Source: Octopus vulgaris
Lineage: Eukaryota
Length of the DNA: 64,000 nt
Reading direction: 5' to 3'
NCBI GenBank assembly: GCA_951406725.2
Contig: OX597820.1
Location: 7,936,001-8,000,000, forward strand
Shown one piece after another: positions 10,801-10,848 of the stretch. The position numbers and the translations under genes are program-made. The notes beneath the pieces are model-generated. The model saw only the letters and a program-made list of their open reading frames with translations, had not been told where the DNA came from and made no database searches. Every line of letters starts with the position of its first letter. The first letter of the stretch is position 1.

Positions 10801-10848
10801 GTCTCTGATGAAGGGACATCCCTAATATTCCAGAAACAGCTGTAAGAC
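10801..10848 (+). ncRNA. Minimal type I hammerhead ribozyme-like motif
   Basis: GTCT | CTGATGA | AGGGA..TTCCA | GAAA | C-AGCT-G | TA | AGAC. Stem I is GTCT/AGAC, stem III is the palindrome ACAGCTGT, and the cleavage triplet is GUA (after 10844). Confidence 0.75.

What the first reader, a model, noticed from the sequence alone, without database searches (positions are those of the whole stretch)
10836..10843. Stem III is repeatedly a self-complementary palindrome, implying dimeric catalysis
Seen across unrelated families: ACAGCTGT (10836, 23994), ACATGT (13140), ACGATCGT (11093), ACCGGT (36306), ACGT (family A), ACTC-A-GAGT (35971) and ACTT-G-AAGT (13385). The sequence differs but the symmetry is kept, which chance motifs would not show. 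Established: minimal HHRs with an unstable stem III (newt satellite type, PLE pLTRs) cleave as dimers by pairing two such palindromes. Inference: solitary copies would be silent unless two same-family copies meet in cis or in trans.
Basis: partly seen in the sequence, partly recalled or inferred. Interest (0 to 1): 0.7.

Follow-up and report, generated by a model that had tools for sequence, protein, structure and literature searches.

The report
Paired hammerheads of Penelope-like retrotransposons
The window holds leftover end-pieces of Penelope-like jumping genes whose small hammerhead RNA motifs have a self-complementary third stem, an already published design that likely lets two copies on one transcript cut as a pair; the commonest family found here also carries an unusual base in its predicted catalytic core.

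Summary
The palindromes are real, exceed chance, and are already known. All seven strings are present, three on the minus strand. A hammerhead search blind to symmetry gave 22 hits in 1.0 Mb of sampled genome, none in controls. Across 33 families, 44 of 49 central stem III pairs that cannot form within one molecule are complementary, against 12 of 54 in loop II. The motifs are minimal type I hammerheads in pseudo-LTRs of Penelope-like elements; intact relatives carry them in same-strand tandem about 4.4 kb apart. Palindromic stem III and dimer cleavage are published (PMC4209133, PMC3088659), and this scan noted them before in other genomes. Corrections: 36306 has GCAA, not GAAA; the 11093 and 23994 copies have broken cores; ACGT is only the conserved core; nearby partners are mostly inverted (81 of 210 loci; 4 same-strand) and cannot pair in cis. 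Side result: family A has U at core position 6 in 14,238 exact genomic matches versus 140 with A, also in intact young elements. Cleavage was not tested.

The parts
10656..11041 (+). 5'-truncated PLE-type pseudo-LTR fragment, family F1 (1659 first-look candidates genome-wide); longer copies have a long pyrimidine-rich 5' part; no ORF link found
10801..10848 (+). Minimal type I hammerhead: stem I 10801-10804 with 10845-10848, core 10805-10811, stem-loop II 10812-10832, GAA 10833-10835, palindromic stem III 10836-10843, predicted cut after 10844
11080..11190 (-). Broken hammerhead, family F4 (palindrome 11093-11100); about 20 nt deletion removes 5' arm of stem I and start of core
13091..13153 (+). 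Complete minimal hammerhead, family F3 (palindrome 13140-13145, stem I 7 bp)
13379..13439 (-). Complete minimal hammerhead, family F7 (palindrome 13385-13393, two changes from family majority); element about 13323-13557
15883..15918 (+). Family A1 minimal hammerhead, loopless stem III ACGT, U at core position 6; in a pLTR fragment about 15812-16034 of a PLE family with intact RT + GIY-YIG copies elsewhere
17915..18584 (+). Broken 3' end of a PLE ORF (GIY-YIG region) with a short inverted piece at its 5' side; no hammerhead found behind it
23985..24072 (-). Hammerhead of family F2 with C3>G in this copy (palindrome 23994-24001, long loop II, weak stem I)
33756..33817 (+).
35788..36022 (.). Family F6 inverted pLTR pair between (TA)n runs with a tail on one end; intact motif on + (core 35951, palindrome 35971-35979), core-mutated motif on - (palindrome 35898-35906)
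36050..36394 (.). Family F5 inverted pair with PLE-type anatomy; hammerhead-like motif with GCAA in place of GAAA (palindromes 36306-36311 on +, about 36166-36171 on -)
36521..36556 (-). Family A1 hammerhead; same strand as the next one, 597 nt apart: the only close same-strand same-family pair found in the window
37118..37153 (-). Family A1 hammerhead, stems and family core intact
41976..42010 (-). Family A2 hammerhead (C at core position 4, stem III ACGT)
46540..46950 (.). Inverted pair of a further hammerhead family (cores at 46618 on -, 46841 on +; stem III 3 of 4 symmetric)
47291..47326 (-). Family A1 hammerhead with one stem II mismatch
47921..47955 (+). Family A2 hammerhead with mutated stem III
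56036..56085 (+). Candidate hammerhead with U3-A8 core, stem I 7 bp, stem III 4 of 5 symmetric; family not followed up

Best explanation
These are minimal type I hammerhead motifs in the pseudo-LTR ends of many Penelope-like retrotransposon families, and their palindromic stem III likely lets the two same-strand copies on one tandem transcript fold into a double hammerhead and cut out a unit-length RNA, while the scattered copies in this window are truncated relics that are likely silent. Shown: the motifs, their symmetry across families, PLE-type insertion anatomy (variable 5' truncation, inverted 5' piece, one-sided tail, (TA)n targets), a direct link to RT + GIY-YIG ORFs for family A1 and for two ACCGGT families, and same-strand tandem hammerheads 4.4-4.5 kb apart in intact elements. 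Predicted: a lone stem III is unstable or impossible, the two-copy stem is stable. Inferred from published work: cleavage is slow, needs the dimer and possibly the element's protein. Inferred: selection keeps the palindrome only in source elements.
For: Symmetry: 44 of 49 dimer-only pairs in 33 families, 41 of 46 in C3-G8 families, loop II control 12 of 54; 22 hits in 1.0 Mb against 0 in controls. Energies: monomer hairpins of the cited 6-9-mers +2.1 to +6.0 kcal/mol, none possible for ACGT; homodimers -1.7 to -11.1; double hammerhead below two single hammerheads by 7-14 kcal/mol for the four window motifs F1, F3, F6, F7. PLE link: 784-aa ORF with RVT_1 (E 3.5e-8) and weak GIY-YIG hit (E 4e-4, below Pfam cut-off), 4 hammerheads in direct tandem 4419-4433 nt apart; family A1 lies 730 nt behind a GIY-YIG ORF end in L070 and three times in direct tandem 4470-4477 nt apart around a 1024-aa frame; another ACCGGT motif about 185 nt behind ORF ends in L080 and L275. 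Anatomy: matching the description in 10.1101/2021.04.23.441226. Arrangement within 1.5 kb: 125 of 210 loci solitary, 81 inverted partner only, 4 same-strand. Published: consensus and dimer tests in PMC4209133; palindromic stem/loop III in PMC3088659 Fig. S8 legend; review PMC6765202.
Against: No ORF link was found for F1-F7; their PLE status rests on anatomy. All evaluated active folds, single or double, lie above the predicted minimum-energy fold (loop II was left unstructured in my models, which inflates the gap). 10 of 33 families can form 3-4 bp of stem III alone. Genomic copies run through the cut site (family A1: 23 of 25 pieces span it, none starts at it; none starts at it in four other families), so the template was uncut or re-ligated. 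Private substitutions in dispersed copies are somewhat rarer in the core (40 observed, 55 expected, P 0.02) and palindrome (16 vs 25, P 0.04) than in flanks, not the clean neutrality expected of relics; many source lineages could explain this. The commonest families have non-canonical cores. In PMC11167929 cleavage needed protein and was dispensable in vitro.
Confidence: 0.78

Rival explanations
1. The palindrome pairs two element RNAs (or two ends of one RNA) for a purpose other than cutting, such as assembling the template with a dimeric RT; cleavage is marginal or vestigial.
For: Family A1 amplified to at least 14,238 exact copies with U6; F5 keeps ACCGGT although GAAA is GCAA; copies span the cut site; hammerhead mutants did not affect insertion in vitro and the protein was modelled as a dimer (PMC11167929).
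Against: In A1 the other core bases, both stems and a free position 7 are kept across two subfamilies only about 73-76% alike, the signature of a hammerhead core under selection; a 4-nt palindrome gives only -1.7 kcal/mol, too little for a pure dimerisation signal without stems I.
Confidence: 0.13
2. The motifs cleave as monomers, with stem III held by the element's protein or by tertiary contacts; the symmetry is incidental.
For: Protein-assisted cleavage of a PLE hammerhead (PMC11167929); 10 of 33 families can form 3-4 bp alone; an axolotl motif showed 22% monomer cleavage (PMC7229834).
Against: Monomer folding does not need the central pairs, yet 44 of 49 are complementary; 8 of 33 families can form 0-1 bp alone; a Schistosoma minimal motif showed no monomer cleavage (PMC4209133).
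Confidence: 0.06
3. The symmetry is a mutational by-product (template switching perfects short hairpins in DNA or during reverse transcription) with no role at RNA level.
For: The 13385 copy regained symmetry by two changes; these elements form inverted structures readily.
Against: Loop II of the same motifs is at chance level, 12 of 54; the symmetry is centred exactly between GAA and the cut site in 33 families with 25 different stem III sequences; both single mutants of the 13385 family are common, and hits were ranked by likeness to the window copy.
Confidence: 0.02
4. Chance motifs in repeat-rich DNA.
For: Loose GAAA + palindrome matches are very common in the window; no Rfam match at gathering score.
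Against: 0 hits in 11 control sets against 22 real; every cited site belongs to a repeat family with 190-1684 first-look candidates.
Confidence: 0.01

Closest known systems
Minimal and palindromic-helix-III type I hammerheads in pLTRs of metazoan Penelope-like elements (Cervera and De la Pena 2014, PMC4209133; read: parts 1-2 of 4 of the text, part 1 of supplement 2 and search passages; supplement 1 could not be searched)
   Same: Consensus core + extra base before stem II + GAAA + palindrome + UH, short stem I, U-rich 5' flank, many families per genome, mostly solitary or inverted truncated copies, U3-A8 core variant, molluscs included (Lottia, Crassostrea).
   Different: No cephalopod in the parts I saw; stem III here often 6-16 nt rather than 4; loop II up to about 80 nt; family A1 has U6 and family F5 has GCAA, neither seen in the parts read; density about 22 canonical motifs per Mb (roughly 60,000 per genome by extrapolation, Poisson range 39,000-93,000) against about 9,000 reported for Xenopus tropicalis with a different descriptor.
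Repeat-type hammerheads with palindromic stem/loop III (Perreault et al. 2011, PMC3088659; read: passages and the section on core variation)
   Same: Palindromic stem III and loop III allowing dimer pairing; weak stems II and III; natural U3-A8.
   Different: Its natural position-6 variant is A6C from a phage, with low activity; U6 is not named in the section read.
Newt/axolotl satellite-2 hammerheads and non-LTR retrozymes (PMC7229834, PMC6155905: passages; 10.64898/2026.07.22.740005: part 1 of 5; Forster et al. 1988 only as cited there)
   Same: Short helix III, dimer cleavage.
   Different: Retrozymes are 200-400 nt head-to-tail tandems; here only 4 of 210 loci have a same-strand partner within 1.5 kb, and tandems are 4.4-kb ORF-bearing units.
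Poseidon PLE of Anolis carolinensis (PMC11167929; read: passages)
   Same: pLTR hammerhead, tail from internal RT initiation, genomic copies made from uncut RNA.
   Different: The intact families here have a CxxCxxC linker between RT and endonuclease, a Neptune/Nematis feature; no phylogeny was made.
[quoted passage not shown]
   Same: By its title, the very claim of the finding.
   Different: Unknown; it may already describe the core variants noted here.

Membership tests
Type I hammerhead ribozyme | Core CUGANGA ... GAAA ... UH at a three-way junction | tested here: met
   Met in the copies at 10836, 13140, 13385, 35971 and in family majorities of F2 and F4. Not met in copies 23994, 11093; deviating in A1 (U6), A2 (C4).
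Type I hammerhead ribozyme | Same core for the 36306 motif (family F5) | tested here: not met
   Family majority has GCAA for GAAA and 5 extra bases before the possible stem I.
Type I hammerhead ribozyme | Stems I and II pair | tested here: met
   Stem I 4-7 bp and stem II 2-7 bp in F1, F3, F6, F7, A1, A2, F4 majority; F2 stem I about 2 bp.
Type I hammerhead ribozyme | Site-specific self-cleavage | not testable with these tools
   No assay; only contig-type runs were listed.
Type I hammerhead ribozyme | Rfam hammerhead model match | tested here: not met
   No family at gathering score in the window; none among the 150 best of 351 E-value matches shown.
Dimer-type (double) hammerhead | Palindromic stem/loop III too short to fold alone | tested here: met
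   44 of 49 central pairs; 23 of 33 families at most 2 bp alone; energies.
Dimer-type (double) hammerhead | Second same-strand copy on the same transcript | tested here: inconclusive
   Met in intact elements; met for 4 of 210 dispersed loci within 1.5 kb and one A1 pair in the window; transcription not shown.
Dimer-type (double) hammerhead | Dimer cleaves, monomer does not | not testable with these tools
   Published for other motifs only.
Penelope-like element (EN+) | ORF with RT and C-terminal GIY-YIG next to the pLTR | tested here: met
   Family A1 and two ACCGGT families outside the window.
Penelope-like element (EN+) | Same ORF link for families F1-F7 | tested here: inconclusive
   No linked ORF in 210 loci of about 3 kb nor in 6 further F1 loci; one Neptune-type query only. 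They may be non-autonomous or more deeply truncated.
Penelope-like element (EN+) | Partial tandems, inverted 5'-truncated copy, one-sided tail, microsatellite targets | tested here: met
   description.
Non-LTR retrozyme | Short head-to-tail tandem repeats each with a hammerhead | tested here: not met
   4 of 210 loci with same-strand partner.

The most novel reading that the evidence does not exclude
The most abundant Penelope-like family in this genome runs on a loopless, obligate-dimer hammerhead with uridine at the 'invariant' core position 6, kept through two subfamilies about 25% apart and in intact, still-amplifying elements: either a new natural active core variant or a ribozyme detuned on purpose so that only a protein-bound RNA dimer cuts, giving a ready natural test of what the PLE hammerhead is for.
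Probability: 0.3. Interest if true: 0.55.

Novelty: new member of a known kind. Interest (0 to 1): 0.27.

Why it matters
As stated, the finding re-discovers a design published in 1988, 2011 and 2014, so it adds only a further genome and a clean cross-family statistic. What could matter: the role of PLE hammerheads is still open, and this genome offers young intact families with tandem arrays and fixed non-canonical cores (U6, C4, U3-A8, GCAA) that let one ask directly whether cleavage, pairing or neither is needed for spreading.

Tried and rejected
Rfam: no hammerhead hit; microsatellite matches to miRNA models are noise. The repeat finder was swamped by simple repeats. Early guess that 36306 is a mariner-type MITE: rejected, ends are variable, with inverted truncation and a one-sided tail. 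Reading ACTTGAAGT versus ACTCGGAGT as compensatory covariation: rejected as evidence, since it is a rare double mutant among hits ranked by likeness to the query. Linking F1 to an ORF: the RT fragment beside L014 belongs to another family; longer F1 copies end in microsatellites without an ORF. Linking F6 and F3 to nearby ORF ends (L184, L275): different insertions. U3-A8 descriptor alone is near background (6 real, 11 in 10 shuffles). Expression: no RNA holder listed on record; contigs of four coded runs cover the intact family's pLTR but cannot show ends, strand or level; used neither for nor against. In one search the cut point for family A1 was misplaced by 8 nt; redone. A family-specific 'code': not supported, the same palindrome occurs in several families (ACAGCTGT and ACGT each in at least 3), and F1 and F2 share no similarity beyond a 15-nt match around it. 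Literature on U6: searches 'hammerhead + A6U' and hammerhead + five U6 core spellings (20 of 56 listed) showed no title on such a variant; none of those papers was opened, and the most relevant paper is not held.

Full report
Setting. The window is G000:C7:7936001-8000000 of a 2.8-Gb animal assembly, 36% GC and rich in microsatellites; its recognisable long frames look like fragments of LINEs and a mariner (labels recalled). Size and repeat make-up suggest an octopus-like genome (inference).

Observation. All seven strings are at the given places; 23994, 11093 and 13385 make sense only on the minus strand. At 10836 the full order of a type I hammerhead is present: stem I 5' arm, CTGATGA, stem-loop II, GAA, ACAGCTGT, A, stem I 3' arm. 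Each cited site is a member of a dispersed family: first-look candidates 1659 (10836), 1684 (13385), 647 (35971), 522 (36306), 383 (23994), 190 (13140), 240 (11093) (lower bounds). Alignments of the best copies show that 10836, 13140, 13385 and 35971 are complete motifs; 23994 has C3>G; 11093 has lost about 20 nt with the 5' arm of stem I; 13385 is a double mutant of a family whose majority is ACTCGGAGT; and 36306 has GCAA instead of GAAA throughout its family.

Is it chance? Any stem III is an inverted repeat, and ACGT is just four conserved positions, so the fair test concerns central pairs that close a loop of under 3 nt and so cannot form in one molecule. I wrote a descriptor (core, stem II, GAAA, 2-16 nt, UH, stem I) with no symmetry term. 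In 100 stretches of 10 kb taken at round coordinates it found 22 canonical motifs, 13 fully symmetric, and none in the reversed sequence or ten shuffles (first 600 kb). Over all 2.02 Mb then held (window plus 360 loci, many chosen by family and some overlapping, so member counts are not independent) 140 hits fell into 33 families; U3-A8 hits were kept only with C15.2-G16.2. Using one majority stem III per family, 44 of 49 central pairs are complementary, 41 of 46 for the 30 C3-G8 families, against 12 of 54 at the centre of loop II.

What carries the motifs. F1 copies are 5'-truncated at varying points and often have an inverted partial copy in front; F5 and F6 are inverted pairs in (TA)n with a tail on one end only. 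That is the PLE anatomy described in 10.1101/2021.04.23.441226 (passages). A PLE RT fragment beside one locus led to 10,371 candidates, many with an intact 784-aa frame that has RVT_1 and a sub-threshold GIY-YIG hit. Its units are 4.43 kb, in direct tandem, each with a U3-A8 hammerhead and ACCGGT; four lie 4419-4433 nt apart at one locus. Family A1 of the window lies 730 nt behind a GIY-YIG ORF end in L070; that ORF has 19,480 candidates, many with identical scores and frames up to 1214 aa; in 12 fetched stretches all 14 hammerheads are of type A1, three of them in direct tandem 4470 and 4477 nt apart. For F1-F7 no ORF link was found.

Mechanism. Predicted energies: the cited 6-9-mers cost +2.1 to +6.0 kcal/mol as monomer hairpins and give -4.6 to -11.1 as duplexes; ACGT cannot fold alone and gives -1.7. 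Double-hammerhead models lie 7-14 kcal/mol below two single hammerheads for the four complete window motifs, but all lie above the minimum-energy fold, consistent with the low activity reported for such motifs. The natural partner is the same-strand copy in the next pLTR of a tandem transcript. For dispersed copies, within 1.5 kb, 125 of 210 loci are solitary, 81 have only an inverted partner and 4 a same-strand one (top hits only, some pairs counted from both arms). An inverted partner is antisense on the transcript and would tie the motif up in a long hairpin (inference). In the window the one close same-strand pair found is A1 at 36526 and 37123. In a double hammerhead both stems I are also formed between copies, so family specificity comes from stem I as well; the palindromes themselves recur across families.

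Results against the simple picture. Ten of 33 families can form 3-4 bp of stem III alone. Copies run through the cut site: 23 of 25 A1 pieces span it and none starts there; none starts there in four other families, one A2 piece ends there. So templates were uncut or re-ligated, as PMC11167929 found for an anole PLE whose hammerhead cleaved only with protein and was dispensable in vitro (passages). Private substitutions in dispersed copies hit the core and palindrome at about 70% of the flank rate (40 vs 55; 16 vs 25; all substitutions): mostly decay, with a deficit that could come from many source lineages or weak selection; I cannot separate these.

Side result. Family A1 has U at core position 6 in 22 of 23 sampled copies that cover it, in both a young (about 92% to the intact copy) and an old (about 73-76%) subfamily, while position 7 takes all four bases. 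Genome-wide, an exact 31-base pattern gives 14,238 matches with U6 and 140 with A6. PMC3088659 (section read) reports A6C as a natural low-activity variant and does not name U6 there. Family A2 mostly has C4 (13 of 20), a change known from viroids. My searches listed no paper on cephalopod PLE hammerheads or on U6, apart from a count of 235 Rfam hammerheads in giant squid (PMC6962438, passages); the paper most likely to cover such variants is not held, and one supplement of PMC4209133 could not be searched.

Comparison. PMC4209133 states the consensus, the palindromic loop 3 and the dimer tests; PMC3088659 Fig. S8 legend states the palindromic character; PMC6765202, PMC7229834 and PMC6155905 (passages) repeat the dimer model. 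Earlier notes of this scan reached the same reading in other genomes. Verdict: real, well supported, already known in kind; new only as further families in another genome, with one core variant worth a bench test.

Noticed in passing
G000:C6:117391601-117401100 (L367), L368-L378; window 15883-15918 and other A1 copies: Young intact PLE family whose hammerhead has U at core position 6 in 14 of 14 fetched copies; 14,238 vs 140 exact genomic matches.
   Followed up: partly
G000:C9:10666001-10686000 and C9:55711001-55731000 (L121-L124): Young intact PLE family, 4.43-kb units in direct tandem, with an upstream 446-aa frame overlapping a 784-aa RT + GIY-YIG frame in another reading frame (two-frame layout unusual for EN+ PLEs, from recall), U3-A8 hammerhead just before the first frame.
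   Followed up: partly
window 36050-36394: Very young family (copies about 99% alike) with PLE anatomy whose hammerhead-like motif has GCAA for GAAA and extra bases before stem I; relatives in L080/L275 have one extra base at the same place.
   Followed up: partly
window 10812-10823: In the F1 majority the 5' arm of stem II lies within a second, 12-nt palindrome that could form a competing hairpin or a second intermolecular duplex (it dominates the predicted fold).
   Followed up: no
window 35788-36022: Family F6: 28 of 30 loci are inverted pairs and most share the same junction, suggesting a microhomology hotspot or amplification as a fold-back unit.
   Followed up: partly
L121/L122 and window 35940-35992: An A-A mismatch interrupts stem I after 3-4 bp, followed by about 4 more pairs, in two unrelated families; possibly a tertiary-contact loop.
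   Followed up: no
   Followed up: partly
window 48113-48791: 291-nt inverted repeat, 97% complementary, 97 nt apart.
   Followed up: no
window 16354-17400, 31374-33348, 34278-35233, 35247-35855, 60069-61969: Broken LINE-like RT frames, a mariner-like transposase and RTE-like fragments (labels recalled).
   Followed up: no
window 8-124 (minus): Fragment of another PLE ORF end related to those in L080 and L275.
   Followed up: no
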